From an uncultured Prolixibacteraceae bacterium (GTDB lineage: Bacteria; Bacteroidota; Bacteroidia; Bacteroidales; FEN-979), in assembly GCA_964473485.1 (NCBI GenBank), contig CAYYPH010000015.1:9000-72999 (forward strand): a stretch of 64,000 nt of DNA. The letters run 5' to 3'. The notes beneath the pieces were generated by a model. It saw nothing but the letters and a program-made list of their open reading frames with translations, was not told where the DNA came from and searched no databases. Position 1 is the first letter of the stretch; the number at the start of each line of letters is the position of its first letter. This document shows, piece by piece, positions 48,032 through 61,111 of this stretch. The position numbers and the translations under genes are program-made.

Positions 48032-48129
48032 GGGTGCTGTTCGTTCTGCAGAAACCGTAAAAAAAAGAGGTTGTTTGCCCGCCGAAGGTACGAAATATTT
48101 ATCCCGGGTATCAGTTACACAAGGTTTAT

Positions 48130-48137
48130 TAACTTTG
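48130..48137 (+). promoter_or_regulatory. -7 element for the DUF5686 gene
   Basis: TAACTTTG 14 nt upstream of the ATG at 48152. Confidence 0.5.
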
Positions 48138-48151
48138 AAAAAAAAGTCAGA

Positions 48152-50668
48152 ATGCAGCGACACTTTCTTATCACATTCATAATCTGCCTGTTACATGCAT
48201 TTCCCATGCATGGACAGGAGACAAATTACACCTCAGGGAAAATCATCGATGCAAAAACCCGGGAACCTTTAGCGTTTGTCAATATTGTGATCAACAATGG
48301 AAACACCGGGGGTACCAGCGACATTGACGGAAAATTCAGGCTGCGCTCATCAAAGCCGGTTACCAGTCTCCGCTTCTCTTTCGTAGGATATGAATCAAAA
48401 ACGATCAGTACCGTCAGTAAAACCAAAGATCTGCTGGTGCAACTAACGCCGAAGGAGATTGATCTGGGTGAGGTTGAGATCCTTCCCGGAATCAATCCCG
48501 CTCACCGGATCATCAGCAATGTGATCGAAAACCGTGACATCAACGATCCGGAGAAGGTGAAGACCTTTTCATACACGGCCTATGACAAGACCGTATTTAC
48601 GGCCGACATTGACACTACATTGAAAAACGATTTCGCCGCCCTCGTCGACACTACGGGATACAGGCCTGCCGGGGGGATGGGCATGGATTTCACTATGAAT
48701 GCCGACTCTGTGAAAATGGATTCGGCCACCCGTGATTCAGCCACCCGTTTTCTGGAAGATCTGATCAGCAAACAATATCTTTTCCTGATGGAGAATGTAA
48801 CCAAACGGAAGTTCATGGCTCCCGACAAAAACTATAACAAGGTGATCGCGACCAAAATGTCGGGTTTTAAAGACCCCATCATGGTTTTCATTGCCACCCA
48901 GATTCAGTCCTTTTCCTTTTATAAACCGGTTATCACCATTTTTCAGAGAGAATACATCAATCCCATCGGTTCCGGGGGGTTGAACAAATATTTTTTCAAG
49001 ATCGAAGACACCACCTATTCCGGCAAAGACACCGTTTTTATCGTTTCATTCAGGCCCAGGAAGGGCACCAATTTCGATGGGCTTAAGGGAGTTCTTGCCA
49101 TCAATACGTTTAACTGGGCGATCCAGAATGTCAGCGCCGAACCCCATCCGAACGACGGCGGGTTCATGATCAGGATCCACCAGATGTATGAGCTTATCGA
49201 AGGCAAGCAGTGGTTCCCTGTACAGCTTAACACCGATGTGGCCTTTAACAATTTACGGATCGGGAAATACAAAGCGGTAGGAAGCGGCAGGAGTTACATT
49301 CGCGACATTGTGCTCAATCCGGAGTTGGTCAGGAGGGAATTCAGCCATCTTGACATCGAGGTGGACCCGATGGCCACCGACCGTAACGAGAACTTCTGGA
49401 ATCTTTACCGGATCGACAGCCTGACGTCGAAGGACCGCCAGACTTACAAGGTGCTCGACAGCGTAGGAAAAGCCAATAATTTTGACAAGATGGCAAAATC
49501 TCTTCAGACGATCCTGACCGGCAGGATCCCATGGGGACCCATTGATCTGGACATCAACAAATTTCTCAACTACAACACCTACGAAGGATTGATACTGGGT
49601 GCTGGGCTTCACACCAACGACAAACTTTCGCAATGGTTCAGGATCGGCGGTTTTTACCAGTATGCCTTTGCCATCTCAACCTCAAAATATGGCGGCGATT
49701 TCAAGATCATCGCGAACCGGCGGCATGACCTGACGTTTTCGGGCGCCTATTTCTATGACCTGATCGAGTCGGGAGGGGTTAGTTTCCCAAGTGATTACGA
49801 AAGCATACTATCCGGAAATTTCCGGCAGCTTATGATTAAAAAACTGGATCGTACCGAGAGTTTCGGTCTCTCTATGGGTTTCAGGGCACTGAAATACGTG
49901 CTTTTCAACGCAGGTTTTACCAGGGAACAAAAGCAATCGACTACCTTCGACTTCGCCACTCAGGAAGGGAATGCCACCATCCTTGATGATCAGTTCCTCT
50001 TCTCAAATTTCACAGCGGGGTTTAAATGGGCCTATGGAGAGAAATTCATCCAGACGGTCAACAACAAGATATCGCTCGGGACCAGTTACCCGGTTATCTG
50101 GATTCAATACACCCTGGGGCTTAAGGGATTCCTGAATGGTGAATACGACTACAACAAAATCGACCTTAAGATCCGTAAAACATTCAATATAAAATACCTG
50201 GGAAAACTAACCCTGCAACTGAACGGGGGATATGTCGATCAGCCCATCCCTGCAACCAATCTTTATTACGCCCCCGGCAGCTACCGGTTAATCACGCTGT
50301 TTGCCCCGGGCAGCTTTGCCACGATGCGCAACAACGAGTTCCTGTCGAGCAAGTACCTCTCGCTTTACCTTTACCATGATTTTGGTTACCTGCTCTACAA
50401 AAGCAAAAACTGGTTTCATCCTGAGTTTGCCGTCTCACAGAATATCGGTTTCGGATGGCTTGACCACGCTGAGCGTTATCAATATATCAGTATCGCGCCC
50501 CGCATCATGGATCTGGGTTATTACGAGTCGGGACTGCTGATCAACAACCTGGTCAATCTGCAGTTATACAAGATCGGTGTGGGAGCCTTTTACCGCTGGG
50601 GGCCCTATTCGTTCGACAAAGTGGGCGACAATTTCGCTTACAAGATTTCGATGATATTTCCTTTCTGA
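48152..50668 (+). CDS. Outer-membrane protein with carboxypeptidase-regulatory-like domain and DUF5686 barrel
   Basis: Signal peptide; SGKIIDAKTREPLAFVNI...GTSDIDGKF...FSFVGYE, YNTYEG..LG, C-terminal Phe; start set at ATG 48152. Confidence 0.8.
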   Translation: MQRHFLITFIICLLHAFPMHGQETNYTSGKIIDAKTREPLAFVNIVINNGNTGGTSDIDGKFRLRSSKPVTSLRFSFVGYESKTISTVSKTKDLLVQLTPKEIDLGEVEILPGINPAHRIISNVIENRDINDPEKVKTFSYTAYDKTVFTADIDTTLKNDFAALVDTTGYRPAGGMGMDFTMNADSVKMDSATRDSATRFLEDLISKQYLFLMENVTKRKFMAPDKNYNKVIATKMSGFKDPIMVFIATQIQSFSFYKPVITIFQREYINPIGSGGLNKYFFKIEDTTYSGKDTVFIVSFRPRKGTNFDGLKGVLAINTFNWAIQNVSAEPHPNDGGFMIRIHQMYELIEGKQWFPVQLNTDVAFNNLRIGKYKAVGSGRSYIRDIVLNPELVRREFSHLDIEVDPMATDRNENFWNLYRIDSLTSKDRQTYKVLDSVGKANNFDKMAKSLQTILTGRIPWGPIDLDINKFLNYNTYEGLILGAGLHTNDKLSQWFRIGGFYQYAFAISTSKYGGDFKIIANRRHDLTFSGAYFYDLIESGGVSFPSDYESILSGNFRQLMIKKLDRTESFGLSMGFRALKYVLFNAGFTREQKQSTTFDFATQEGNATILDDQFLFSNFTAGFKWAYGEKFIQTVNNKISLGTSYPVIWIQYTLGLKGFLNGEYDYNKIDLKIRKTFNIKYLGKLTLQLNGGYVDQPIPATNLYYAPGSYRLITLFAPGSFATMRNNEFLSSKYLSLYLYHDFGYLLYKSKNWFHPEFAVSQNIGFGWLDHAERYQYISIAPRIMDLGYYESGLLINNLVNLQLYKIGVGAFYRWGPYSFDKVGDNFAYKISMIFPF

Positions 50669-50681
50669 ATGTTGACCGTCT

Positions 50682-50702
50682 AATTTAGAATAATTCGAAA
50701 TT
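50682..50702. promoter_or_regulatory. Near-perfect 10-1-10 palindrome, candidate Fur-family operator upstream of the respiratory operon
   Basis: AATTTAGAAT-A-ATTCGAAATT, one mismatch from perfect dyad symmetry. Confidence 0.55.
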
Positions 50703-50735
50703 TTGGGGCACAAAAGTCAGGTTTGAATATTTATT

Positions 50736-50743
50736 TATATTTG
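50736..50743 (+). promoter_or_regulatory. -7 element for the Fe-S/NrfD/cytochrome c/oxidase operon
   Basis: TATATTTG 28 nt upstream of the ATG at 50772. Confidence 0.6.
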
Positions 50744-50771
50744 TCCATATAATTTCATCAGCGACTCAACT

Positions 50772-51737
50772 ATGGAAGATAACCACAACCATCAACCTAC
50801 CGAAGGAGATCCAAAAGGTTCATCGAGAAGAGACTTTCTGAAGAATCTCGGACTGGCCGGGGTGGGTGTTGCAACAGGCGCGGCCGCGCTCTATTCGGGT
50901 CATATTTTTGAGGCAAAAAAGGAAGTTTCAGGTGTAAAAAGAGTGTTACTTACCCAGGACGGAAAGCTGGTTCAGGTGGATTCGTTGAAAATGAAGGCGA
51001 TGGAAAAGACCGGAGAAGAGCTGCTCACCTTTCAGGGCCGCGAAGGGATTCCCGGACGGCGATGGGTGATGGTGACCGATCTCTCGCGTTGCCGTAATGC
51101 CCGGCGTTGTATTACCGCCTGCCAGGAGGCACACCAGCTGAAACCGGAGCAGTATCATATCAATACGCTGCAGATGCAGGATTCGCCGAATACTGCCCCC
51201 TACCACATGCCCAAAAACTGCCAGCACTGCGACAATCCGCCCTGTGTTTCGGTATGCCCTGTTGATGCCACCTACAAACGCCCCGATGGAATTGTGCTGA
51301 TCGATAACGACCGGTGTATCGGATGCCGGTTCTGTATGTCGGCCTGCCCTTACTCAGCAAGGATTTTTAATTGGCTGGAGCCGAAAGATGCCGCCAAGCA
51401 TCAGGATCAGGATTACAATGTGGAGTTAAATGTCCCTCAGAAACTTGGCACCATTTCAAAATGCCTTTTCAGCGCCGACCGTCTTCGCGAAGGCAAACTG
51501 CCCTATTGTGTATCAGCCTGTCCGAACGGGGTATACTATTTCGGCGATGAAAACGAGGATGCAGTAACCAACGGAACCACGCAGGAGACAGTGAGGCTCA
51601 GCAAGCTGTTGCGCGATAACGGCGGATACCAGCTCATGCCGGAGCTTGGGACCAAGCCGAGGGTCTATTATCTTCCCCCGAAGAACCGTCTTTTCCCATT
51701 TGATGAAACTCCAGAACCATCCCCTAAAAAAGCGTGA
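50772..51737 (+). CDS. Tat-exported multi-Fe-S protein (NrfC/DsrO/ActB2-like)
   Basis: SSRRDFLK twin-arginine signal; Cys groups CRNARRCITAC, CQHCDNPPCVSVCP, CIGCRFCMSACP, KCLFS...PYCVSACP; GTKPRVYY. Confidence 0.9.
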   Translation: MEDNHNHQPTEGDPKGSSRRDFLKNLGLAGVGVATGAAALYSGHIFEAKKEVSGVKRVLLTQDGKLVQVDSLKMKAMEKTGEELLTFQGREGIPGRRWVMVTDLSRCRNARRCITACQEAHQLKPEQYHINTLQMQDSPNTAPYHMPKNCQHCDNPPCVSVCPVDATYKRPDGIVLIDNDRCIGCRFCMSACPYSARIFNWLEPKDAAKHQDQDYNVELNVPQKLGTISKCLFSADRLREGKLPYCVSACPNGVYYFGDENEDAVTNGTTQETVRLSKLLRDNGGYQLMPELGTKPRVYYLPPKNRLFPFDETPEPSPKKA

Positions 51738-53065
51738 ACCATATGGAATACAACAAATTAACCATTGAGAAAGTCACCTATGACCTGAGCCATCATATTC
51801 GGATCAACAAAGGGTTTATCCTTTGGATGGGTTTCCTGACCGTGTCGCTGCTGATATGTCTTTACGCTTATTCAGTGCAGCTCAGGGAAGGTCTGGGAGT
51901 GGCCGGAATACGTGACTATGTGAGCTGGGGCATCTACCTTTCGAACTTCGTTTTTTTCGTGGCTTCCAGCCTTATCGGTATGCTGATCAGTGCTGTTCTT
52001 GGCCTGATCGGGTTCAAATGGGTGACGCCGTTGACCAGAATCGCCGAAACCATCGCCGTGGCCTTTGCCGCTGTTGCGGGGCTGGTGATCGTTTCGGACA
52101 TGGGGCGACCGGAGCGGCTGGCCTATGTTTTCATTCATGCGCGTTTCCAGTCGCCGATCCTCTGGGACGTTACTGTGATCACTACCTATTTTGTGCTGAG
52201 CCTGTTACTTCTTTACCTTCCGCTGATAGCCGACATGGCCATCATTCACCGGAAGTTTGATGCCCTGCCCGCCTGGTTAAAACCCGTCTACAAAATCCTT
52301 TCCCTCAATTTCACCGACTCACCCGAACAGAACCGGATCATTCACCGGGCAATAAGGATCCTGCTCATCCTGATCGTTCCGATGGCCCTATCCATTCATA
52401 CCGTCACATCGTGGTTGTTTGCCGTTACCTCACGGGCAGGCTGGGACAGCACGATCTTTGGGCCGTATTTCGTATCCGGGGCCTTTGTTGCCGGGGCAGC
52501 GGCCGTAATCGTGGCCATGTACTTCTTTCGGAATAACTACAAGCTGCAAGACTACCTGACGGAAATGCATTTCAACAACATGGGCAAGGTACTGGCTTTG
52601 GTCTCGCTGGTCTATCTCTATTTCAACATCAATGAGTTTCTTGTACCGGGATACAAACTCAAACGGGCCGATGCCGTTCACCTGCATGAATTACTTGCAG
52701 GCAAGGATGCCGCGATGTTCTGGCTTGTCCAGGTGGGAGGCCTTATCGTTCCCATTATTCTGATGCTGTTCAGGAGGTTCAGGAAACCGTTGCCAATCAT
52801 GCTCATCTCTGTTGCAGTGATCGTCGCGGCGTGGTTTAAACGCTACCTGATCGTCATCCCCACGCAGGAGCATCCTTTCCTGCCCATACAGCATGTGCCT
52901 GAAAACTTTGTTCACTACACCCCCACCCTCCTTGAATCGCTTATTTCGCTGGCGCCTTTCCTCCTTGTTCTGATCATCATCACACTAATCTCCAAGTTTT
53001 TTCCCGTTATCCCGATCCACGAGACAGCCAGGGAAAAAGGGATTGAGCATGTAACCTTTGATTAA
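51734..53065 (+). CDS. NrfD/PsrC-family quinone-interacting membrane protein (10 TM, ActC/QrcD/DsrP-like)
   Basis: WGIYLSNFVFF, DMGRPER, FQSPILWD, SIHTVTSWLF, WDSTIFGPYFVSGAFVAG; about 10 hydrophobic helices. Confidence 0.9.
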   Translation: MNHMEYNKLTIEKVTYDLSHHIRINKGFILWMGFLTVSLLICLYAYSVQLREGLGVAGIRDYVSWGIYLSNFVFFVASSLIGMLISAVLGLIGFKWVTPLTRIAETIAVAFAAVAGLVIVSDMGRPERLAYVFIHARFQSPILWDVTVITTYFVLSLLLLYLPLIADMAIIHRKFDALPAWLKPVYKILSLNFTDSPEQNRIIHRAIRILLILIVPMALSIHTVTSWLFAVTSRAGWDSTIFGPYFVSGAFVAGAAAVIVAMYFFRNNYKLQDYLTEMHFNNMGKVLALVSLVYLYFNINEFLVPGYKLKRADAVHLHELLAGKDAAMFWLVQVGGLIVPIILMLFRRFRKPLPIMLISVAVIVAAWFKRYLIVIPTQEHPFLPIQHVPENFVHYTPTLLESLISLAPFLLVLIIITLISKFFPVIPIHETAREKGIEHVTFD

Positions 53066-53085
53066 TCAACAAACAACCGGAAATT

Positions 53086-53988
53086 ATGCGTTTCAACTCA
53101 CTGATAATCATTTCCTTCATCCTTACACAGGGATTCAGTATAACTGCTTCCGGCCAGGCATGGGTTGTTCCCGATGACCAGAAAGCGATCAGGGCACCAT
53201 TCAAATTCACGCCCGATATGCAGAAGAAGGGGGAGGAACTTTATGCCAAAAACTGTCAGTCGTGTCACGGTCAGCCCGGAAAAGATAACTGGGCCCAGCT
53301 GACACCTCCGCCGGGTGACCTGGCCAAGGACAAAGTGGCCAAAGAGACCGATGGGGAGATGTTTTACAAGATCACTGCAGGAAGGCCGCCGATGCCTGAA
53401 TTCAGGAATATTCTCACCGAGGACGAGCGCTGGTGGGTGGTAGCCTATGTCCGTACTTTTCACGCAGGATATGTGCAGCCTGAACCAGGTCCAGTAAAAG
53501 CTTTCGACGGCCGGACCATCACGCTTCACATGAAATTCAACGAAAAGGAGAAAAAGATCATTGTCAGCGCTACCGAGCTGACAAAAGAGAATACCCAGAT
53601 ACCGGCTGAAGGAGTGGATATATCGGTTTGGGTGAAACGCTATTTCGGCCTCATGCAGGCCACCGAGGTCAAGACCACTGGCCCCTCGGGGAATGCAGTG
53701 TTTTCCTTCCCTGAAGACATACCGGGCAATAAGGGTGGCTTTGTGGATCTTGTGGCGAGGGTCAATGATCCGAAAGGGACGATGCGGTCATCACCGGCTA
53801 CGGCCAGTCTGGCGATTGGGAAACCCACAGACCTGCCGGGCCTGACCGAAACCCGTGCATGGTGGTCAGTGAGGTCGCAGGCGCCGGTTTGGGTCATTCT
53901 GACCTATTCCCTGTCCGTCATCATTGTTTGGGGATTCATACTATATATTGTTTATACCATATTGCAGATAAGAAAGGTGAGCGGGTGA
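53086..53988 (+). CDS. Monoheme cytochrome c with an extra beta-sandwich-like domain and C-terminal TM anchor
   Basis: Signal peptide; GEELYAKNCQSCHG, distal ligand candidate RPPMPEF; C-terminal VWVILTYSLSVIIVWGFILYIVY. Confidence 0.85.
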   Translation: MRFNSLIIISFILTQGFSITASGQAWVVPDDQKAIRAPFKFTPDMQKKGEELYAKNCQSCHGQPGKDNWAQLTPPPGDLAKDKVAKETDGEMFYKITAGRPPMPEFRNILTEDERWWVVAYVRTFHAGYVQPEPGPVKAFDGRTITLHMKFNEKEKKIIVSATELTKENTQIPAEGVDISVWVKRYFGLMQATEVKTTGPSGNAVFSFPEDIPGNKGGFVDLVARVNDPKGTMRSSPATASLAIGKPTDLPGLTETRAWWSVRSQAPVWVILTYSLSVIIVWGFILYIVYTILQIRKVSG

Positions 53989-54054
53989 ACAGGTGAGCGG
54001 GTGAACAGGTGAGCGGGTGAACAGGTGAACGAGGGAGCAGGTGAACAGGTGAAT
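53975..54054 (+). repeat. 8/16-bp tandem repeat (AGGTGAGC GGGTGAAC x3, then degenerate 8-mers)
   Basis: Three exact 16-bp copies at 53975-54022, then aggtgaac gagggagc aggtgaac aggtgaat. Confidence 0.9.
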
Positions 54055-54127
54055 GGGGGAATAGAAACCTAGGTTATACGAAATTTGATTAGGAAGGGGT
54101 GAAGATCATGATCAAAACAAAATAAAG

Positions 54128-54919
54128 ATGTACAGAATCAGACTTTTTCTTTGTTTACTGGCGGTTCTGCTGCTGAGCCAGGGGCAAGTGGTATCGGCAC
54201 AGGAAGGAACTGCCATTGAGGCCGGGATCATCGAACAACTCGATACTATCGTTCCTGCCTCGCTCGTCTTTACCGATGAATCAGGGAAGACCGTGAATCT
54301 CAGGTCAATCATCACAAAACCAACCATTCTCGTGCTGGTTTATTTCGATTGTCCGGGTATTTGTCCGGCCATACTCTCGGGTGTCTCCGACGTAGTGGAG
54401 AAACTGGGAATGGAACTGGGAAAAGAATACCAGATTTTATCCATCAGTTTTAATCCGGCCGATACACCTGAAAAAGCGGTGAGCCTGAAACGAAATTACC
54501 TCCGCGATCACAGCCGCGAACACGCAGATTCGTGGATGTATCTTACCGGCGACAGTGCCAACATCAACGCCCTGACACGTGCGGTGGGTTACTATTTCAA
54601 ACCGATGGGGAACGATTTTATGCATCCGTCATGTATCATTGTACTCAGCCCTCAGGCAAAGGTAACCCGGTACCTTTACGGCACCTCATTTCTCCCGTTC
54701 GATGTGAAAATGGCCATTGTTGAAGCGCAAAAAGGCCAGTCAAGACCGACCATCAACCGGGTTCTGGAATACTGCTTCAGCTATGATCCCGAAGGTAGGA
54801 AATACACCCTCCAGGTCACAAAAATTGCCGCCACCATCATCATCTTTTTTGCGGTAGTCCTATTCACTACGCTCATTATCAGGTCATCCAGGAAAAAGAA
54901 AAAATCAAATCAACAATAA
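54128..54919 (+). CDS. SCO1/SenC family copper chaperone
   Basis: YFDCPGICP (CxxxC), DFMHPS conserved His, C-terminal TM. Confidence 0.92.
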   Translation: MYRIRLFLCLLAVLLLSQGQVVSAQEGTAIEAGIIEQLDTIVPASLVFTDESGKTVNLRSIITKPTILVLVYFDCPGICPAILSGVSDVVEKLGMELGKEYQILSISFNPADTPEKAVSLKRNYLRDHSREHADSWMYLTGDSANINALTRAVGYYFKPMGNDFMHPSCIIVLSPQAKVTRYLYGTSFLPFDVKMAIVEAQKGQSRPTINRVLEYCFSYDPEGRKYTLQVTKIAATIIIFFAVVLFTTLIIRSSRKKKKSNQQ

Positions 54920-54920
54920 T

Positions 54921-56531
54921 ATGACAGACGAAACCAGACATCACCCGGAGCCCAGTTACCTGGTCGATACCGGGAAATACAAGGGACTTATGGCGTGGCT
55001 CACCTCCACTGACCATAAGCGGATCGGCCTGATGTACATGTATGCCATGATGATATTTTTCATTGTCGGGGTTTTACTCGGGGTAATTATGCGTATTGAG
55101 TTATACTTCCCGGGCCAGCAGGTTTATGGTCCACAGGCTTACAATGGCATTTTCACCATCCATGGAATCATCATGATCTTCACCGTTGTTATACCCGGGC
55201 TTGCAGCCGTTTTCGGCAACATCATGATGCCCATCATGATCGGAGCCAAGGACGTGGCATTTCCCCGGCTTAACCTGTTTTCATTTTATCTCTACATACT
55301 TGGCGCTGCTATCGCCCTTACATCACAGTTCATGGGTGATGGGCCACCCGACACGGGCTGGACGTTTTATGCCCCCTATTCCATACAGTCGAACACCAAT
55401 GTCGTGGCTGCCGTTTTCGGTGCATTCGTGCTGGGATTTTCCTCCATTTTGACTGGTCTTAATTTCATCGTTACCATTCATCGGATGAGAGCGCCTGGCA
55501 TGACCTTCTTCAAGATGCCCCTGTTCCCCTGGTCACTTTATGCAACGGCCTGGATACAGGTACTTGCCACCCCTATCGTTGGTATCACCCTCCTGATGAT
55601 CATTGCCGAAAGATGGCTGCGGATTGGCTTTTTCGATCCGTCCCTGGGTGGCGACCCCATCCTTTACCAGCATCTTTTCTGGATTTATTCCCATCCGGCA
55701 GTTTATATCATGATCCTTCCCGCCATGGGCGTCATCACCGAGATCATCCCCACTTTCGCCCAGCGCAAGATATTCGGGTACAAAGCCATCGCCATATCCA
55801 GTCTTGCCATAGCCCTGGTGGGCTATTTCGTATGGGCACACCATATGTACACCTCGGGAATGAGCACCACGGCACGCTGGGTTTTCTCGCTGCTAACCTT
55901 CCTTGTGGCGGTTCCGAGCTCGATCAAAGTCTTCAACTGGGTCAGCACCATGTACAAAGGTTCCATCGCCATTCAGCCGCCATTCCTCTATGCAGTCGGT
56001 TTTATCTTTCTTTTCATGATCGGCGGTATGACGGGTCTTTCGCTCGGTGCCCTTGCCACCAACATTCATGTGCATGACACCTCTTACGTGGTTGCCCACT
56101 TTCATTACATCGTGTTCGGGGGCGTAGGCTTTGCCTTTTTCGCGGCATTGTTTTACTGGTACCCGAAGATATGGGGCCGCATGTACGATTTCAAACTGGC
56201 CAACTGGTCGTTCATATTCATGTTCGTTGGTTTCAACCTGCTCTATTTCCCGCAGTTTGTGATCGGCATCATGGGAATGCCAAGAAGGTATTTCGACTAC
56301 CTGCCCCAATTTACATTCGGGCACCAGTTGTCGTTTTTTGGCGGCATACTGCTGGTTATAGGATTTATCCTTATGTTAAAAACCCTTTCCAGTAAAAAAG
56401 GCGCAAAGGCACCCGACAATCCATGGGGAGGCCGTACTTTTGAATGGACGATACCTTCGCCCCCGCCTGTGGAGAACTTTGAGGTGATGCCGGTAATGGG
56501 CGAAAAGGATGAACCCTACGACTACAAGTAA
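54921..56531 (+). CDS. ctaD: Heme-copper oxygen reductase subunit I, A2 type
   Basis: TDHKRIG, TIHGIIMIF, KDVAFPRLN (D-channel Asp/Asn), FWIYSHPAVY (A2 YS motif), WAHHMY, IKVFNW (K-channel Lys), VVAHFHY. Confidence 0.96.
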   Translation: MTDETRHHPEPSYLVDTGKYKGLMAWLTSTDHKRIGLMYMYAMMIFFIVGVLLGVIMRIELYFPGQQVYGPQAYNGIFTIHGIIMIFTVVIPGLAAVFGNIMMPIMIGAKDVAFPRLNLFSFYLYILGAAIALTSQFMGDGPPDTGWTFYAPYSIQSNTNVVAAVFGAFVLGFSSILTGLNFIVTIHRMRAPGMTFFKMPLFPWSLYATAWIQVLATPIVGITLLMIIAERWLRIGFFDPSLGGDPILYQHLFWIYSHPAVYIMILPAMGVITEIIPTFAQRKIFGYKAIAISSLAIALVGYFVWAHHMYTSGMSTTARWVFSLLTFLVAVPSSIKVFNWVSTMYKGSIAIQPPFLYAVGFIFLFMIGGMTGLSLGALATNIHVHDTSYVVAHFHYIVFGGVGFAFFAALFYWYPKIWGRMYDFKLANWSFIFMFVGFNLLYFPQFVIGIMGMPRRYFDYLPQFTFGHQLSFFGGILLVIGFILMLKTLSSKKGAKAPDNPWGGRTFEWTIPSPPPVENFEVMPVMGEKDEPYDYK

Positions 56532-56571
56532 TTTGTCAAGCAACAACCAATAATTTGTAAATCATTTATTT

Positions 56572-57165
56572 ATGGAACATCGAGACGATGTGGGCGCAAA
56601 ACTCGGGATGTGGATATTTATTTTCACGGAGATCCTGCTATTTGGCGGACTATTCCTGGTATATGCCATTATGAGGCATCATTACACGGAGGACTTCCAC
56701 CAGGCGGCAAACCATCTGAATGCCTTTATTGGCGCTATCAACACGGTAGTACTCCTGATCAGCAGCGCCACAGTGGCCATGTCGATTACAGCCATCCAGA
56801 AAGGTGATAAGAAGATGGCTTTGACGTTTCTTTTTATCACGCTTCTCTGCGCCCTGGGCTTCCTGGTGAATAAGTACTTTGAATGGGGTCACAAGATACA
56901 CATCGGGCTGTACCCTGGGAGCGACCTGATGCTTTCGCTCAACCACGGCTCTGTGATGTTTTTCGGGCTTTACTACCTGATGACCGGGCTTCATATGTTC
57001 CATCTGATCGTAGGAGCCATCATCCTTGCTGTCATCATGGTAAAGATCAACAACGACAGTATCCATGCCGGAAAATATGTCCTTTTGGAAAACGGCGGCT
57101 TGTACTGGCACCTGGTCGACCTGATATGGATCTACCTTTTTCCATTGCTGTACCTCATCACCTAA
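56572..57165 (+). CDS. ctaE: Cytochrome c oxidase subunit III (short form)
   Basis: LGMWIFIFTEILLFGGLF, NTVVLLISS, YYLMTGLHMFH, GLYWHLVDLIWIYLFPLLY. Confidence 0.94.
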   Translation: MEHRDDVGAKLGMWIFIFTEILLFGGLFLVYAIMRHHYTEDFHQAANHLNAFIGAINTVVLLISSATVAMSITAIQKGDKKMALTFLFITLLCALGFLVNKYFEWGHKIHIGLYPGSDLMLSLNHGSVMFFGLYYLMTGLHMFHLIVGAIILAVIMVKINNDSIHAGKYVLLENGGLYWHLVDLIWIYLFPLLYLIT

Positions 57166-57180
57166 ACACAGGGAAATGGT

Positions 57181-57215
57181 AAAATTGAAAATGGAAAATT
57201 GAAAATGGAAAACGG
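57181..57215 (+). repeat. 7-bp tandem repeat (AAAAT(T/G)G x5)
   Basis: aaaattg aaaatgg aaaattg aaaatgg aaaacgg. Confidence 0.8.
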
Positions 57216-57241
57216 ACTCTATTAAGTTGATTGTCATGCCC

Positions 57242-57269
57242 AATTCGTAATTCGTAAATCGTAAATTGA
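57242..57269 (+). repeat. 7-bp tandem repeat (AAWTCGT x3-4)
   Basis: aattcgt aattcgt aaatcgt aaattga. Confidence 0.75.
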
Positions 57270-57274
57270 AAAAC

Positions 57275-57559
57275 ATGCATACTGAAGAACAACATGTTAC
57301 GCCATACATCGCCCACGCATGGGTGCTGATCGCACTTTTGGTGATGACCACCATAACCATCACCGTTACCTGGATCGACCTTTCGGCCTTAACAGTAGCC
57401 GTTGCCTTGCTTATCGCAACAGTCAAAGCAGTCATTGTGCTGACCTATTTCATGCACCTGAAATTTGAATCGGGTCTTTTCAAGGTCTTTGTATTGATGG
57501 TCCTGCTGATCTATGCACTGGTGATCATTTTCACGCTTTCGGATTACCTGTTGAGGTAA
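57275..57559 (+). CDS. ctaF: Cytochrome c oxidase subunit IV family protein
   Basis: Three TM; WVLIALLVMT, IATVKAVIVLTYFMHLKFE; ATG 57275 (alternative TTG 57266). Confidence 0.88.
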   Translation: MHTEEQHVTPYIAHAWVLIALLVMTTITITVTWIDLSALTVAVALLIATVKAVIVLTYFMHLKFESGLFKVFVLMVLLIYALVIIFTLSDYLLR

Positions 57560-57646
57560 ACGGAAGGCATGAGCAATTAACTGAAAACAGAAGGGACTGG
57601 ATAATAATAACAGAACAATTGTACTTCGTAAACGTAAATTTTCTAT

Positions 57647-58552
57647 ATGGGTGCTTCCAATTTTGTTGAAGGAGTAGATCTTGCGTTCAAGATCATCTTT
57701 GGCATCAGCCTCTTTTTCCTGGTAAGCATAACGGCGGTTATGCTCTATTTTCTGTACCGCTACAACCGGAAACGGCATCCGGTCGCTATCCAGATAAAAG
57801 AGAACAACTGGCTGGAAATCACATGGATCGTTGTGCCGCTGATCCTGGTGTTATTGATGTTTTATTATGGATATGTGGCTTTCAGCCCCATGCGAAACGT
57901 GCCAGAGAACGCCATACCCGTCAAAGTGATCGGCAAGATGTGGGAGTGGATCTTTGAATACGAAGGCGGAAAACAATCCAAAACACTGGTTGTTCCTATC
58001 AACAAACCGATCAGGCTTAATCTCTATTCCCCCGATGTCATCCACGCCCTTTACATTCCTGCCTTCAGAGTTAAGGAGGACGTGGTTCCGGGCAAAAACA
58101 ACTACCTGTGGTTCGAGGCCAAGCAATTTGGGGAGTACGACATCCTGTGCACTGTATTTTGCGGTATCAGGCACTCTTACATGGAGGCAAAGGCCAAAGT
58201 GGTAACCGAAGAAGAGTACAAAGCCTGGCTTGCCGCGCTGCCTTTGCCTTCGGCTGAGCCGGAAGGTCTGAAGATTCTGAAGAAAAACGCCTGTACCGGT
58301 TGTCATTCACTGGATGGCACCAAACTGGTCGGTACCACTTTCAAAGGGCTTTACGGTAAGAAAGAAAAGGTGGTAACGGATGGGAAGGAACGCGAAATCA
58401 TCGTTGATGACGAATATATCAAAACCTCTATTTACGACCCTGATAAAGATCTCGTTTCAGGATTCCCGAAAGGTTTGATGAAGACCTACAAGGGGCTGGT
58501 CACTGAGGAGGAGGCGACAAAGGTGATTGAGTACCTGAAAGAGCTGAAGTAA
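57647..58552 (+). CDS. ctaC: Cytochrome c oxidase subunit II with fused C-terminal cytochrome c (caa3-type)
   Basis: Two TM, MWEWIFEY, DVIHALYIPAFRVKEDVVPG, CuA motif CTVFCGIRHSYM, heme motif CTGCH with GLMKTY Met. Confidence 0.94.
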   Translation: MGASNFVEGVDLAFKIIFGISLFFLVSITAVMLYFLYRYNRKRHPVAIQIKENNWLEITWIVVPLILVLLMFYYGYVAFSPMRNVPENAIPVKVIGKMWEWIFEYEGGKQSKTLVVPINKPIRLNLYSPDVIHALYIPAFRVKEDVVPGKNNYLWFEAKQFGEYDILCTVFCGIRHSYMEAKAKVVTEEEYKAWLAALPLPSAEPEGLKILKKNACTGCHSLDGTKLVGTTFKGLYGKKEKVVTDGKEREIIVDDEYIKTSIYDPDKDLVSGFPKGLMKTYKGLVTEEEATKVIEYLKELK

Positions 58553-58570
58553 ACCAAATTTTGAATAATC

Positions 58571-58602
58571 TGATTGACTGACTGATTGATTGATTGATTG
58601 AT
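58571..58602 (+). repeat. 4-bp microsatellite (TGAY x8)
   Basis: tgat tgac tgac tgat tgat tgat tgat tgat. Confidence 0.85.
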
Positions 58603-58604
58603 TT

Positions 58605-58654
58605 AATTTTGAATTTTGCCATTTGAACTTTGAATTTTGAATTTGAATTTGAAT
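58605..58654 (+). repeat. 6/7-bp tandem repeat (AATTTTG-type)
   Basis: aattttg aattttg ccatttg aactttg aattttg aatttg aatttg aat. Confidence 0.8.
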
Positions 58655-58673
58655 CTCTCCTGACTTCCCTCTT

Positions 58674-59540
58674 TTGCACACTGCCGGTATAAAAGACATC
58701 CTGATCCTTACCCGTTTTCCGGTATCCCTGGCGGTTACCGTTACTTCGCTTACTGCCATGATCATGGCTTCGGGCGAATTCAACATGCAGATGCTTTGGC
58801 CGCTAGGTGGGATTTTCCTGCTGGCCTCCGGCGCATCCGCTTTTAACCAGTACCAGGAGTGGCCATGGGACGAAAAAATGGAGCGGACCCGCAGAAGGCC
58901 CATTCCGTCGCGCCGCATCAGTCCTGCCGAGGGTCTGCGGATTGCCCTGATCACGCTCGTTGGGGGACTTATCATCCTGATGTACAAAGTCAACTGGAAC
59001 TGTTTTATTTTGGGAGTCATCAACCTGCTGTGGTACAATGGTTTTTACACCTGGCTTAAAAAGAAAACGGCCTTTGCGGTGGTACCCGGTGCCCTCACCG
59101 GATCCATTCCGGTTTTGATGGGATGGAGTGCCGTTGAGAACGATTACTTCGCCCCTCCTGCCGCGTTCCTGGCCTTTTTTATATTCATATGGCAGATGCC
59201 GCATTTCTGGATGCTGTCGATAAAATACGGGGATGAATATAGCAAGGCCGGTTTCCCAATGCTGAAAAACCACTTTTCGGAAAAACAGATCAGGATTATC
59301 ATCATGGTCTGGGTCATTGCTTCTTCGGCCGCATCGCTGATGTTTATCTATTTCAACCTGCTGAACCATCCCGTGATCATATACGCTGTCGCGGCTATCA
59401 ACCTGGTACTGATTTCTACCATCTTTTACCAGTTTTTCATTTCAAGGAGACTGAATTACCGCCTTATCTTCATGACTGCCAACCTTTACATGATGGGAGT
59501 GATGGTCGCCCTGATCGTGGAAACCCTGCTGAACAATTAG
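58674..59540 (+). CDS. ctaB: Protoheme IX farnesyltransferase (heme O synthase)
   Basis: ASAFNQYQEWPWDEKMERTRRRPIPS, FYTWLKKKT, WQMPHFW, EYSKAGFPML; TTG start (in-frame TGA at 58650-58652 bounds the ORF). Confidence 0.92.
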   Translation: MHTAGIKDILILTRFPVSLAVTVTSLTAMIMASGEFNMQMLWPLGGIFLLASGASAFNQYQEWPWDEKMERTRRRPIPSRRISPAEGLRIALITLVGGLIILMYKVNWNCFILGVINLLWYNGFYTWLKKKTAFAVVPGALTGSIPVLMGWSAVENDYFAPPAAFLAFFIFIWQMPHFWMLSIKYGDEYSKAGFPMLKNHFSEKQIRIIIMVWVIASSAASLMFIYFNLLNHPVIIYAVAAINLVLISTIFYQFFISRRLNYRLIFMTANLYMMGVMVALIVETLLNN

Positions 59541-59561
59541 GGAATAGGGGATAGTGAAAAT

Positions 59562-59647
59562 TCAATCAAACAAACAATCAGTCAATCAATCATTCAGTCA
59601 TTCAGTCAATCAATCATTCAGTCATTCAGTCAATCAGTCAATCATTC
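59562..59647 (+). repeat. 4-bp-period degenerate microsatellite (CAAT/CAGT/CATT) containing an exact 24-bp duplication
   Basis: gtcaatcaatcattcagtcattca at 59581-59604 and 59605-59628, flanked by further caatca/gtcaatca units. Confidence 0.88.
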
Positions 59648-59650
59648 CAT

Positions 59651-60754
59651 ATGCATGAACTTTATCAAAAGAACAAACTTTTCTTCCTGGTTCTGCTGGT
59701 CGCGGCCGTCGGGTTTCTGACCTGGTACTTCCTCGACATTGTCATTTTCGTTATCGTGGCAGCCGTTATCGCGATCATTGGAACACCTTTGGTGGATTTA
59801 CTCGACAGGATCAGGATATGGAAATTCAAATTTCCTCATTTCCTCAGTGTAACTCTCACCCTGATGCTGATTCTGGCAACGTTCCTGGGGATGTTCGCGC
59901 TTTTTATCCCGCTGGTGATCAAGGAGGCACAATTGATCAGTACCATCGACGGCACTCAATTGATGGCTCACTACGACCAGGAGATGCGGCACCTGCATTA
60001 CATGATCAATCAGTACGGCCTTATGCCCAAGGGAATGACGCTGGAGAAAAGCATCAAAGAGGCCATCCTGAAATTCATCGATTTCGACTTCTTCTCGAAT
60101 GTCCTGACCTCGGTGATATCCTTTACCGGAACTTTCTTTTTCAACATCTTCTCTGTTGCGTTTCTCTCCTTCTTTTTCCTGATGGATCCAGTTATGCTTC
60201 CCCGGGCCATCCTGCTATTTACACCCAAAGCCTATGAGGAGCAGGTAAAAAATGTCATGATCAAAAGCCGCGCACTCCTATCACGTTATTTCATCGGGTT
60301 AATCCTGCAGATCACGGCCAACATCATTACCTATTCGCTGGCGCTTTACATCGTAGGAGTTCCGAACCCCCTGGTAATAGGCTTCTTCACAGGGGTCATC
60401 ATCATCATACCTTACATCGGAGGTATCATATCAATGATCATGGGTTTACTGATCGGTTTAACGGGCATTGTCGCCCTGGGTGATTATTCCCTCCTCATGC
60501 CTATGGCGCTGAAAATAATCATCGCCATGTTTATCGTTCAGATGATCGACAACAATATTTTTGCACCATTCATTCAGGGGAAAAGCGTTAAAGCCCATCC
60601 TGTCGAGGTCTTTATTGTCGTCATTGCCGCCGCGAGCCTGGGCGGGATCATCGGGATGGTCGTTGCCGTGCCGGCCTACGGATTTCTGAAGATAGTGGTA
60701 CAGGAGGTCAGGGAACACATTAAGCCACTGGACAGCGTGTCGCATGACACGTGA
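59651..60754 (+). CDS. AI-2E (PerM/UPF0118) family transporter
   Basis: Polytopic; FLSFFFLMD, LLSRYFIG, IIPYIGG, QMIDNNIFAPFIQGKSVKAHP. Confidence 0.92.
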   Translation: MHELYQKNKLFFLVLLVAAVGFLTWYFLDIVIFVIVAAVIAIIGTPLVDLLDRIRIWKFKFPHFLSVTLTLMLILATFLGMFALFIPLVIKEAQLISTIDGTQLMAHYDQEMRHLHYMINQYGLMPKGMTLEKSIKEAILKFIDFDFFSNVLTSVISFTGTFFFNIFSVAFLSFFFLMDPVMLPRAILLFTPKAYEEQVKNVMIKSRALLSRYFIGLILQITANIITYSLALYIVGVPNPLVIGFFTGVIIIIPYIGGIISMIMGLLIGLTGIVALGDYSLLMPMALKIIIAMFIVQMIDNNIFAPFIQGKSVKAHPVEVFIVVIAAASLGGIIGMVVAVPAYGFLKIVVQEVREHIKPLDSVSHDT

Positions 60755-60784
60755 CGGGAAATCGTGACGCGTGACGGGTGACGA
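60751..60784 (+). repeat. 7-bp repeat (GTGACGN x4) starting at the AI-2E stop codon
   Basis: gtgacgg gaaatc gtgacgc gtgacgg gtgacga. Confidence 0.7.
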
Positions 60785-60824
60785 ATTTTATTTACGGATT
60801 CTCCGAAAAAAGCTATTCTTATAC

Positions 60825-60832
60825 TATCTTTG
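60825..60832 (+). promoter_or_regulatory. -7 element for the YtxH/holin-like gene trio
   Basis: TATCTTTG 30 nt upstream of the ATG at 60863. Confidence 0.55.
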
Positions 60833-60862
60833 TCTGGGTTCTTCAATTAAAGACGCATAATC

Positions 60863-61111
60863 ATGGCGAAATCAGGTTCAAAAGTTTGGTTGGCAGCAGC
60901 GCTTGGCTTGGCTGCCGGTATTGGGGTCGGTATGCTGATCGCACCGGCCAAGGGCTCAAAAACCCGGAAAAGACTGAAGAAGAGGATCATGGGTTTTGCC
61001 GACCTGATGCAGGAGGACATTTCGGAAAAACTGAACGCAATCAAATCAGCTCTTGGGGCAGAGGAAAAATCGGTTCACATGGATGATGAAGTTACTGAGG
61101 AGGGTAAATAA
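60863..61111 (+). CDS. YtxH-domain small membrane-anchored protein
   Basis: LGLAAGIGVGMLIAPAKGSKTRKRLK signature. Confidence 0.88.
   Translation: MAKSGSKVWLAAALGLAAGIGVGMLIAPAKGSKTRKRLKKRIMGFADLMQEDISEKLNAIKSALGAEEKSVHMDDEVTEEGK

What the first reader, a model, noticed from the sequence alone, without database searches (positions are those of the whole stretch)
50772..59540. Minimal three-subunit 'alternative complex III'-like module directly upstream of a caa3-type oxidase
Seen: one promoter drives a Tat Fe-S protein, a 10-TM NrfD-family protein (4-bp overlap), a TM-anchored monoheme cytochrome c, and then sco-coxI-III-IV-II-ctaB, with no clear terminator between them. Established: canonical ACIII (Rhodothermus, Chloroflexus, Flavobacterium) has pentaheme ActA, a large ActB with a molybdopterin-fold domain, ActC, ActD, ActE and ActF, and can form a supercomplex with aa3 oxidase. 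NrfC/NrfD-type pairs otherwise serve a molybdoenzyme, NrfA or Dsr/Qrc partners. Here there is no ActA, ActD, ActF, Mo subunit or multiheme partner. Inference: a reduced quinol:cytochrome c oxidoreductase that passes electrons from menaquinol through Fe-S and one heme c to the heme c/CuA of subunit II. This would be a compact, possibly uncharacterised menaquinol-to-O2 chain for a microaerobic or O2-scavenging lifestyle. This is my best candidate for an undescribed system in the window.
Basis: partly seen in the sequence, partly recalled or inferred. Interest (0 to 1): 0.72.

Follow-up and report, generated by a model that had tools for sequence, protein, structure and literature searches.

The report
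Three-subunit quinol:cytochrome c module beside oxidase
A conserved trio of genes (a secreted iron-sulfur protein, a 10-helix quinol-binding membrane protein and a membrane-anchored one-heme cytochrome c) lies directly upstream of a caa3 oxidase operon in a Bacteroidales genome from wastewater; it probably does the job of respiratory complex III with far fewer parts, and nobody has tested it.

Summary
All nine genes sit at the stated coordinates: Tat Fe-S protein, 10-TM NrfD protein, monoheme cytochrome c, then sco-coxI-III-IV-II(c)-ctaB.

The trio is not a chance neighbour. In 80 related Bacteroidota loci it is almost always intact. In 66 of them a cytochrome-c-dependent terminal enzyme lies beside it: caa3 oxidase, cbb3 oxidase or the periplasmic nitrate reductase NapAB. 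Spacers can be as short as 1-16 nt.

The membrane subunit is ActC-like in sequence and in predicted fold (TM 0.9). It falls outside the canonical ActC clade and has the DsrP/QrcD-type Asp in the quinol pocket. The Fe-S subunit is nearest DsrO/PsrB. It keeps the quinol-proximal cluster as four-Cys and has only three Cys at each of the two distal clusters. The cytochrome also carries an Ig-like domain and a C-terminal helix. In distant relatives this domain and helix are fused to the NrfD protein.

Best reading: a menaquinol:cytochrome c oxidoreductase with the same job as ACIII or bc1. It is not a member of ACIII, DsrMKJOP or Qrc.

Not shown: enzyme activity, co-transcription, and absence of ACIII or bc1 elsewhere in the genome.

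Verdict: a new variant of a known kind, interest 0.62.

The parts
50736..50743 (+). Bacteroidetes-type -7 promoter motif TATATTTG, with a TTTG at 50722, 29 nt upstream of the first ATG
   Evidence: Pattern search and motif listing. Only two intergenic -7 motifs occur in 50000-60800, this one and 58604. The combined TTTG-N(10-24)-TAnnTTTG pattern is no more frequent in the window than chance (4 found, 2.9 expected), so this is a consensus match only and function is not shown.
50772..51737 (+). Tat-exported four-cluster-type Fe-S subunit, 321 aa. Nearest DsrO/PsrB. Cysteine groups I and IV each lack their second Cys.
   Evidence: Pfam Fer4_11 at 2.6e-22. NCBIfam DsrO 187.9 bits against a cut-off of 200. 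PDB: PsrB 1e-31 and the ActB C-terminus 2.5e-22. Cys pattern and its conservation across 71 homologues.
51743..53065 (+). 10-TM NrfD-family quinol-binding subunit, ActC-like, 440 aa. An alternative GTG start at 51734 gives 443 aa.
   Evidence: Pfam NrfD at 1.8e-32. PDB ActC at 1.5e-46. Family profile 282-304 bits to ActC. Ten hydrophobic segments. AF2 pLDDT 85.8 and Foldseek TM 0.89-0.90 to ActC.
53086..53988 (+). Monoheme class-I cytochrome c domain (CQSCH at residue 57; invariant M103-P104), then a periplasmic Ig-like beta-sandwich (about 140-245) and a C-terminal TM anchor (268-286)
   Evidence: Pfam Cytochrome_CBB3 at 1.2e-13. PDB: c552 5e-11, ActE 1e-7, QcrC 4e-7. AF2 pLDDT about 90 for residues 140-245. 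Invariant residues. The C-terminal half is homologous to C-terminal extensions of distant NrfD proteins.
53975..54060 (+). Purine-rich tandem repeat (16-mer AGGTGAGCGGGTGAAC, 4.9 copies) filling most of the 139-nt cyt c-to-sco spacer. Its length differs between strains.
   Evidence: TRF. L001 carries 16 nt more, and the six short-read contigs checked (L002-L004, L006, L009-L011) all end inside it. No stable fold, no Rfam match.
54128..54919 (+). Sco/SenC copper chaperone with a CPGIC motif and a C-terminal TM
   Evidence: Pfam SCO1-SenC at 9.2e-13; sequence.
54921..56531 (+). Heme-copper oxidase subunit I (A-type)
   Evidence: Pfam COX1 at 7e-149. TIGR02891 649.9 bits, just under its 670.75 cut-off.
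56572..57165 (+). Oxidase subunit III
   Evidence: Pfam COX3 at 1.1e-17.
57266..57559 (+). caa3-type oxidase subunit IV. Public gene calls give 94 aa, which corresponds to a start near 57275.
   Evidence: TIGR02229 caa3_sub_IV 59.6 bits against a cut-off of 37.25; gene call in L001.
57647..58552 (+). Oxidase subunit II with a CuA motif and a fused C-terminal cytochrome c domain (CTGCH at residue 216). This fusion is what makes the oxidase caa3-type.
   Evidence: TIGR02866 166.8 bits against a cut-off of 147.7; Pfam COX2 plus Cytochrom_C; motifs.
58674..59540 (+). Heme o synthase CtaB/CyoE. It has its own -7 motif at 58604.
   Evidence: TIGR01473 208.2 bits (cut-off 210.3); Pfam UbiA at 1.3e-47.

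Best explanation
The three genes encode a self-contained, periplasm-facing menaquinol:cytochrome c oxidoreductase. It has the same job as cytochrome bc1 or alternative complex III.

Proposed steps, all inferred from homology and context:
1. Menaquinol binds near the outer face of the 10-helix NrfD subunit, in the pocket that keeps the Ser, the Asp (WD motif) and the DsrP/QrcD-type Asp. It is oxidised there, and its two protons leave to the periplasm.
2. The electrons enter the proximal [4Fe-4S] cluster of the Tat-exported Fe-S subunit. They run along the four-cluster wire. The two distal clusters have only three Cys ligands and are probably [3Fe-4S], which would mean higher potential.
3. The electrons reduce the His/Met heme of the third subunit. 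That subunit is held on the complex by its Ig-like domain and C-terminal helix.
4. In this genome the heme passes electrons to the cytochrome c domain and CuA of subunit II of the co-encoded caa3 oxidase. In relatives the same trio serves cbb3 oxidase or NapAB.

Shown: gene content, domains, conserved residues, fold similarity, conserved synteny and gene fusions.
Inferred: direction of electron flow, cluster types, physical complex, co-transcription and any proton pumping.
For: 1. Domains and motifs.
2. The NrfD subunit resembles ActC over its full length: phmmer 1.5e-46, family profile 282-304 bits with ActF at 15-50 bits and no PsrC at E<=10, AF2 model TM 0.89-0.90 to four ActC structures.
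3. R. marinus ActC Ser164, Asp169 and Arg395 are kept and invariant in the 10-sequence NrfD alignment A2 and at least 95% conserved in the 80 Bacteroidota homologues. His139 is replaced by Asp. Asp is the strictly conserved residue of the menadiol pocket of DsrP, where quinol oxidation and DsrP-to-DsrO-to-DsrJ transfer were proposed from structures (bioRxiv 10.64898/2026.08.25.746951).
4. Synteny in 80 Bacteroidota loci: the trio is intact in nearly all. Partners are co-directional caa3 in 45 (47 counting two contigs cut at sco), divergent caa3 plus downstream cbb3 in 6, cbb3 in 7, and napAGHBD in 6. Spacers of 1-16 nt occur in 9 loci.
5. Fusions: NrfD to Ig/TM (P0005, P0006, P0010, P0015, P0021, P0023) and NrfD to Fe-S (P0018). 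Distant members are again flanked by an Fe-S gene and a monoheme cytochrome c gene.
6. The heme domain's nearest solved relatives include cytochromes that hand electrons to heme-copper oxidases: ActE, actinobacterial QcrC and CcoP; the top hits are two c552 entries.
7. Precedent that a complex III equivalent feeds Nap: C. jejuni QcrABC (PMC6195509).
Against: - There is no biochemical, genetic or transcript evidence. The one metatranscriptome run that holds this sequence covers only one 200-nt piece of coxI.
- The rest of the genome could not be searched, so a canonical ACIII or bc1 complex may also be present.
- In one relative the trio lies next to actBCDEF (L084), so it need not replace ACIII.
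- Five loci with at least 5 kb of flank have no terminal reductase nearby (L058, L066, L075, L079, L088).
- The Nap clusters already carry napGH, a known quinol dehydrogenase pair.
- A menaquinol-to-heme-c step through low-potential [4Fe-4S] clusters is plausible, but the potentials are unknown.
Confidence: 0.68

Rival explanations
1. The trio is only part of a larger ACIII-type or other multi-subunit complex. The missing subunits (a pentaheme ActA-like cytochrome, a molybdopterin-fold domain, ActD/ActF, or a small membrane protein) are encoded elsewhere.
For: In L084 the trio directly follows actBCDEF. In 27 of the caa3-linked relatives a conserved ~125-aa 4-TM ORF without a Pfam family sits between the cytochrome gene and sco; it could be a fourth subunit. 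The window encodes a separate membrane-bound NrfH/NapC-like cytochrome with 6-7 heme motifs at 31243-32733.
Against: Only one of 80 loci has act genes within 10 kb. The 4-TM ORF is absent from the whole window and from many relatives whose trio is intact. All fusions seen join only the three trio components. Distant family members show the same three-part neighbourhood.
Confidence: 0.12
2. The module runs the other way, like QrcABCD. It would take electrons from a periplasmic donor via the cytochrome and reduce menaquinone.
For: The NrfD subunit has the Asp found in QrcD and DsrP, and it scores on the QrcD, HybB and DsrP models. NrfCD-type modules are known to work in either direction (PMC6303296).
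Against: The neighbours are terminal oxidases and reductases, not periplasmic hydrogenases, formate dehydrogenases or sulfur-oxidising enzymes. The heme has the invariant Met-Pro typical of His/Met high-potential class I cytochromes. QrcC and QrcD scores are far below their cut-offs (114 against 400; 50 against 570).
Confidence: 0.07
3. The adjacency has no functional meaning here. The trio and the cox genes are separate transcription units, and the trio serves another, unknown periplasmic acceptor.
For: The 139-nt repeat-filled spacer could hold an unrecognised promoter. The trio occurs without any nearby reductase in five well-flanked loci, and it pairs with different partners in different lineages.
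Against: 66 of 80 loci place the trio beside a cytochrome-c-dependent enzyme, often with spacers of 16 nt or less that leave no room for a promoter or terminator. The spacer in the window has no -7 motif and no terminator-like hairpin.
Confidence: 0.08

Closest known systems
Alternative complex III (ActABCDEF; Rhodothermus marinus 6F0K, Flavobacterium johnsoniae 6BTM, Roseiflexus 6LOD, Chloroflexus 8K9E)
   Same: The 10-TM quinol-binding subunit is closest to ActC in sequence and in predicted fold. An NrfC-type Fe-S wire and a monoheme cytochrome c lead to a caa3 oxidase encoded next door. Ser164, Asp169 and Arg395 of ActC are kept.
   Different: There is no ActA, ActB1 domain, ActD or ActF. 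ActC His139 is Asp and Asp253 is Leu. ActB lacks a Cys at the quinol-proximal cluster, whereas here that cluster has four Cys and the two distal clusters have three. The NrfD protein falls outside the canonical ActC clade. The cytochrome has an Ig-like domain and a C-terminal helix that ActE does not show in the match.
DsrJOP module of the DsrMKJOP complex of sulfate reducers and sulfur oxidisers
   Same: The parts list is the same: periplasmic cytochrome c plus a Tat Fe-S protein plus a 10-TM NrfD protein. The best curated-model hits are DsrO (188 bits) and DsrP (124 bits). The quinol-pocket Asp matches. The proposed flow of quinol to P subunit to O subunit to cytochrome matches.
   Different: Both scores are below their cut-offs (200 and 350). 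There is no DsrM, DsrK or triheme DsrJ. [quoted passage not shown] The partner is an oxidase or Nap rather than DsrC.
TMH1-DsrOhPh-tetrahaem locus of cable bacteria and some Gamma- and Betaproteobacteria, speculated to be a 'candidate alternative complex III' (PMC13047784)
   Same: A stand-alone DsrOP-like pair with its own c-type cytochrome and a single-helix element, proposed to link the quinol pool to periplasmic acceptors. It is also uncharacterised.
   Different: That cytochrome is a tetrahaem with His/His ligation, and the locus is not reported next to an oxidase operon. No sequences were on hand, so homology at clade level was not tested.
QrcABCD (menaquinone reductase of Desulfobacterota)
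   Same: A 10-TM NrfD-type subunit plus a four-cluster Fe-S subunit plus a cytochrome c, all facing the periplasm.
   Different: Qrc has a multiheme QrcA and a molybdopterin-like QrcB, runs towards quinone reduction, and has a [3Fe-4S] at the proximal site. The model scores here are far below the cut-offs.
Cytochrome bc1 / QcrABC
   Same: The inferred job is the same: quinol:cytochrome c oxidoreductase feeding caa3 or cbb3 oxidases and, in Campylobacter, Nap (PMC6195509).
   Different: There is no sequence or structural relationship: no cytochrome b, no Rieske protein, and no Q-cycle architecture.

Membership tests
Alternative complex III | 10-TMH ActC-type quinol-binding subunit | tested here: met
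   phmmer to four ActC chains at 1.5e-46 to 2.4e-37. Family profile 282-304 bits, full length. Ten hydrophobic segments. Foldseek TM 0.89-0.90 to ActC and 0.57-0.62 to ActF.
Alternative complex III | ActC quinol-site residues His139 and Asp253 (R. marinus numbering), together with Ser164, Asp169 and Arg395 | tested here: not met
   His139 is Asp and Asp253 is Leu. Ser164, Asp169 and Arg395 are kept (alignment; residue list from PMC8076601; conservation).
Alternative complex III | ActB with an N-terminal molybdopterin-fold (B1) domain | tested here: not met
   The Fe-S protein is 321 aa with Fer4 domains only. It aligns only to residues 796-1023 of R. marinus ActB.
Alternative complex III | [3Fe-4S] at the quinol-proximal cluster (second Cys of group III missing in ActB) | tested here: not met
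   Group III here is CIGCRFCMSACP, against CIGTRYC in ActB. The missing Cys are instead in groups I and IV.
Alternative complex III | Pentaheme ActA plus membrane subunits ActD and ActF in the cluster | tested here: not met
   None occurs in the operon or in the 64-kb window, and none in 79 of 80 related loci. Presence elsewhere in the genome could not be tested.
Alternative complex III | Monoheme ActE | tested here: inconclusive
   The heme domain matches R. marinus ActE at 1.1e-7, but it matches c552 better at 5e-11. It also carries an extra Ig-like domain and a C-terminal TM.
Alternative complex III | NrfD subunit groups inside the canonical ActC clade | tested here: not met
   A distance (NJ) tree of 120 sequences rooted on ActF puts the trio clade in a separate radiation from R. 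marinus, Roseiflexus and L084 ActC. The method is crude and has no support values.
DsrMKJOP (DsrJOP module) | Passes the NCBIfam equivalog cut-offs for DsrO (200 bits) and DsrP (350 bits) | tested here: not met
   DsrO 187.9 bits and DsrP 123.5 bits. Relatives score 182-188 and 124-149 bits.
DsrMKJOP (DsrJOP module) | Conserved Asp in the DsrP quinol pocket (Asp107 in the structure paper) | tested here: met
   Asp sits at the position of ActC His139 (SDMGRP), in at least 90% of the 10-sequence alignment A2 and at least 95% of the 80 Bacteroidota homologues (alignment). The equivalence of this position to DsrP Asp107 is stated in the preprint.
DsrMKJOP (DsrJOP module) | Accompanying dsrM, dsrK and triheme dsrJ; DsrO with four [4Fe-4S] | tested here: not met
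   No such genes are in the window. The cytochrome has one CXXCH. Two cluster sites have three Cys.
QrcABCD | QrcA multiheme and QrcB molybdopterin-like subunits; QrcC and QrcD equivalog scores | tested here: not met
   QrcC 113.7 bits against 400 and QrcD 49.6 against 570. No QrcA or QrcB genes in the locus.
Polysulfide/nitrite-type NrfCD or PsrBC pairs serving a catalytic subunit | 8-TM PsrC/NrfD-type anchor and an adjacent molybdoenzyme or NrfA | tested here: not met
   The family profile finds no PsrC chain in the PDB even at E<=10. The protein has 10 TM segments. There is no catalytic subunit gene. Only the Fe-S subunit resembles PsrB (1.2e-31).
caa3-type cytochrome c oxidase | Subunit II with CuA and a fused cytochrome c domain; caa3 subunit IV; A-type subunit I | tested here: met
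   TIGR02866 166.8 bits (cut-off 147.7). Pfam Cytochrom_C at residues 207-301 with CTGCH. TIGR02229 59.6 bits (cut-off 37.25). COX1 Pfam 496.8 bits. TIGR02891 is just under its cut-off at 649.9 against 670.75.

The most novel reading that the evidence does not exclude
The trio is a third, structurally distinct class of respiratory 'complex III': three subunits, no heme b, no Rieske protein and no multiheme wire. It would be the main or only route from menaquinol to cytochrome-c-dependent oxidases and Nap in much of the Bacteroidales, with relatives in other phyla. It would contain two [3Fe-4S] clusters at the heme end of the Fe-S wire. It would dock on its oxidase through the membrane-anchored cytochrome.
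Probability: 0.4. Interest if true: 0.8.

Novelty: new variant of a known kind. Interest (0 to 1): 0.62.

Why it matters
Two solutions are characterised for passing electrons from quinol to cytochrome c: bc1/b6f-type complexes and the six- or seven-subunit ACIII. A three-subunit enzyme doing the same job would be the simplest known. It would explain how many facultatively aerobic or nitrate-respiring Bacteroidales, which are abundant in sludge, sediments and marine detritus, connect their menaquinone pool to caa3, cbb3 and Nap. It would also correct generic 'polysulfide reductase' or 'molybdoenzyme anchor' annotations in hundreds of genomes. The question is directly testable because cultured species carry the trio (Marinifilum, Maribellus, Draconibacterium, Geofilum, Ancylomarina). 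Finally, it would give a minimal system for asking whether ActC/DsrP-type subunits pump protons.

Tried and rejected
I used the representative search instead.
- The first look-up of the NrfD protein with the GTG start found nothing. Public gene calls use the ATG start.
- The 27-sequence alignment was too diverse for the search for related loci. A 10-sequence alignment worked. That used the only genome-contig scan, so relatives' genomes could not then be searched for act or bc1 genes.
The cytochrome model therefore rests on 14 rows, and its heme domain is unreliable (pLDDT below 50 for residues 1-134).
- Foldseek of the Ig-like domain gave only generic beta-sandwich hits, none at E<=0.001 and none from ACIII. 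It is not ActD, and Pfam finds no ActD/DUF3341.
- RNA evidence: one metatranscriptome run with a single informative 200-nt contig. It is useless for operon structure.
- The sigma-70 scan found no more sites than shuffled sequence, and that promoter type is inappropriate for Bacteroidota. The terminator scan has no + strand hit in any spacer.
- Rfam found nothing in 50000-61000.
- A literature query with rare tokens was swamped by actin and B-cell papers. The Duarte et al. 2021 BBA review of the NrfD family is not held, so I cannot exclude that it lists this group.
- Rejected idea: that the cytochrome's C-terminal part is only a linker. Its homology to NrfD extensions and its confident fold contradict this.
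- Rejected idea: that the Fe-S subunit is ActB2-like in cluster make-up. The Cys pattern contradicts this.

Full report
**What is there.** ORF listing and domain scans (Pfam, NCBIfam) confirm nine co-directional genes between 50772 and 59540.
- A 321-aa protein with a twin-arginine signal (SRRDFLK) and four-cluster ferredoxin motifs.
- A 440/443-aa NrfD-family protein with ten hydrophobic segments.
- A 300-aa protein with one CXXCH and a C-terminal helix.
- Then sco, coxI, coxIII, a caa3-type subunit IV, a coxII with a CuA motif and a fused CXXCH cytochrome c domain, and heme o synthase.

Public gene calls on near-identical contigs start the NrfD gene at the ATG 9 nt downstream. The rest of the 64-kb window holds housekeeping genes and one NrfH/NapC-like membrane cytochrome with 6-7 heme motifs at 31243-32733. 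It has no act, bc1 or molybdopterin genes.

**Source.** The window matches a 360-kb metagenome contig at 99.7%. The DNA is found in sludge, wastewater, biofilm and sediment metagenomes. The closest genomes are Bacteroidales/Prolixibacteraceae-like MAGs, at 84% identity for the NrfD protein.

**The trio is a conserved unit, linked to terminal enzymes that need cytochrome c.** A profile scan of one genome per species returned at least 594 relatives. The best 80 loci are all labelled Bacteroidota or carry no phylum name (three rows read only 'bacterium' or 'Chlorobi'). They include isolates of Marinifilum, Geofilum, Saccharicrinis, Ancylomarina, Maribellus and Draconibacterium. tblastn and blastp of the window proteins and of reference neighbours gave the following.
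- Fe-S, NrfD and cytochrome genes occur together in nearly all loci.
- Co-directional sco-cox (caa3) follows in 45 loci, plus two contigs cut at sco.
- A divergent cox operon upstream plus cbb3 genes downstream occurs in 6.
- cbb3 (ccoI-ccoNO-ccoP-ccoG) follows in 7.
- napA-G-H-B-D follows in 6.
- A canonical actBCDEF cluster lies next to the trio in one Chitinophagales locus.
- Nothing lies nearby in 13 loci; seven of those have under 2.2 kb of sequence after the trio, and one (L042) is a lone NrfD gene.

Pfam confirmed the cbb3 and nap neighbours. In nine loci the cytochrome gene ends 1-16 nt before the next gene, which leaves no room for separate signals.

**Beyond Bacteroidota.** Distant NrfD homologues (35-45% identity) are again flanked by a small Fe-S gene and a monoheme cytochrome c gene. 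Many of them carry a 200-300-aa C-terminal extension, made of a TM helix, an Ig-like domain and a final TM helix. This extension is homologous to residues about 136-298 of the window's cytochrome subunit (blastp 6e-12 to 3e-5; alignment). One homologue is fused to the Fe-S subunit. These fusions argue that the three proteins form one complex.

**What the subunits resemble: the NrfD protein.**
- It matches only ActC chains of the four solved ACIII structures (1.5e-46 to 2.4e-37).
- A family profile scores 282-304 bits on ActC, 15-50 on ActF, and finds no PsrC at E<=10.
- An AlphaFold2 model (pLDDT 85.8) superposes on ActC at TM 0.89-0.90.
- A distance tree nevertheless puts the trio clade outside canonical ActC.
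- Trio NrfD proteins score 124-149 bits on the curated DsrP model, where true ActC scores about 51.
- Of the ActC residues highlighted in PMC8076601, Ser164, Asp169 and the mid-membrane Arg395 are invariant here. His139 is Asp, the residue found in DsrP, QrcD and HybB. Asp253 is Leu.
- A 2026 preprint on DsrMKJOP structures places menadiol in DsrP next to that Asp and proposes the flow DsrP to DsrO to DsrJ.

**What the subunits resemble: the Fe-S protein.**
- It is closest to DsrO (187.9 bits, cut-off 200) and PsrB (1.2e-31). ActB's C-terminal part comes third among solved chains.
- Its cysteine pattern is distinctive and conserved. Groups II and III are complete, so the two clusters nearest the quinol site should be [4Fe-4S]. 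Groups I and IV each lack their second Cys (Ala and Ser instead), leaving three Cys for each of the two distal clusters.
- ActB instead lacks the group III Cys, which makes its proximal cluster [3Fe-4S].
- Distant trio relatives keep all 16 Cys, and the Chitinophagales trio lacks only the group I Cys. The loss was therefore stepwise within Bacteroidota.
- That the three-Cys sites are [3Fe-4S] is my inference from the classic motif rule (established knowledge of NarH, SdhB and 7Fe ferredoxins).

**What the subunits resemble: the cytochrome.**
- It has invariant C57, C60, H61 and M103-P104, as expected for His/Met class I cytochromes.
- Its nearest solved relatives are c552, ActE, actinobacterial QcrC and CcoP.
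- Residues 140-245 fold as a beta-sandwich (pLDDT about 90) followed by a TM helix.
- Foldseek finds only generic Ig-like folds and no ACIII subunit.

**Mechanism proposed.** Menaquinol is oxidised at the periplasmic face of the NrfD subunit, and its protons are released outside. Electrons pass along the Fe-S wire to the tethered heme c. From there they go to the cytochrome c/CuA of subunit II of the caa3 oxidase, or to cbb3 or NapAB in relatives. Campylobacter Nap depends on its complex III (PMC6195509), which shows this kind of wiring is realistic. Proton pumping through the NrfD subunit is possible because Arg395 is kept, but there is no evidence either way.

**Transcription.** A Bacteroidetes -7 motif lies 29 nt upstream of the first gene, and another lies before ctaB. 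None is in the 139-nt spacer before sco. That spacer is a purine-rich tandem repeat whose length differs between strains; the six short-read contigs checked all end inside it. It has no hairpin and no Rfam match. The RNA data are too thin to decide.

**Comparison with the known.** The trio works like ACIII or bc1 but fails the membership tests for ACIII, DsrMKJOP, Qrc and Psr/Nrf. The general idea that NrfCD-type pairs can act alone towards periplasmic cytochromes is established (PMC6303296). Genome papers have predicted multiheme versions (PMC3534657, PMC9386147). A tetrahaem DsrOP-like locus in cable bacteria has been called a candidate alternative complex III (PMC13047784). I found no description of the monoheme, oxidase-linked Bacteroidota trio, and public names are generic. 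The key NrfD-family review was not readable here.

**Verdict.** It is a new variant of a known kind, uncharacterised, widespread and experimentally approachable. Interest 0.62.

Noticed in passing
window 53975-54060, 57174-57216, 57242-57264, 58571-58654, 59562-59644: Several intergenic spacers of the operon (cyt c-sco, coxIII-coxIV, coxII-ctaB, ctaB-downstream gene) are filled with short tandem repeats: a 16-mer x4.9, AAATGGA x6, AATTCGT x3.3, TGAT x8, AATTTTG x7 and CAATCAGT x8.8. The first begins inside the last codons of the cytochrome gene. It is 16 nt longer in a 99.7%-identical contig (L001), and the six short-read contigs checked all end inside it.
   Followed up: partly
window 31243-32733 (- strand): A 496-aa membrane protein with three N-terminal TM segments, six CXXCH motifs and one CX3CH motif. 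It has weak NrfH/NapC similarity (TIGR03153 7.9e-13; PDB 2j7a_C 3e-4). It is a lone gene between IMP dehydrogenase and a prolyl isomerase. It may be a second quinol dehydrogenase of unknown partner.
   Followed up: partly
L019:12241-12615, L036:12253-12639, L050:12322-12714 and about 24 other loci: A conserved ~125-aa protein with about four hydrophobic stretches (judged by eye from the sequences) and no Pfam family lies between the cytochrome gene and sco in many relatives (44-85% identical to one another). It is absent from the whole window and from relatives with short spacers. It could be an optional fourth subunit or an oxidase assembly factor.
   Followed up: partly
L084:360-12749 (uncultured Chitinophagales): A canonical actB-C-D-E-F cluster is followed directly by the trio. 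There the Ig/TM protein (320 aa) and the cytochrome c (138 aa) are separate genes, and only cysteine group I has lost a Cys.
   Followed up: partly
L042:9959-11290 (Prolixibacteraceae MAG, 3.2-Mb contig): A lone NrfD homologue (59% identity) with no Fe-S or cytochrome gene beside it. This is the only such case among the 80 loci.
   Followed up: no
L032:5424-8113 (- strand) and L055: Cytochrome bd genes (cydAB) lie divergently upstream of the trio in Marinifilum flexuosum, and a cydA homologue lies upstream in L055. Three oxygen reductase systems can therefore cluster around the module.
   Followed up: no
window 48071-50668: The gene just upstream encodes a DUF5686 / CarboxypepD_reg-like protein typical of Bacteroidota. 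It is syntenic in all near-identical contigs, but nothing ties it functionally to the module.
   Followed up: no
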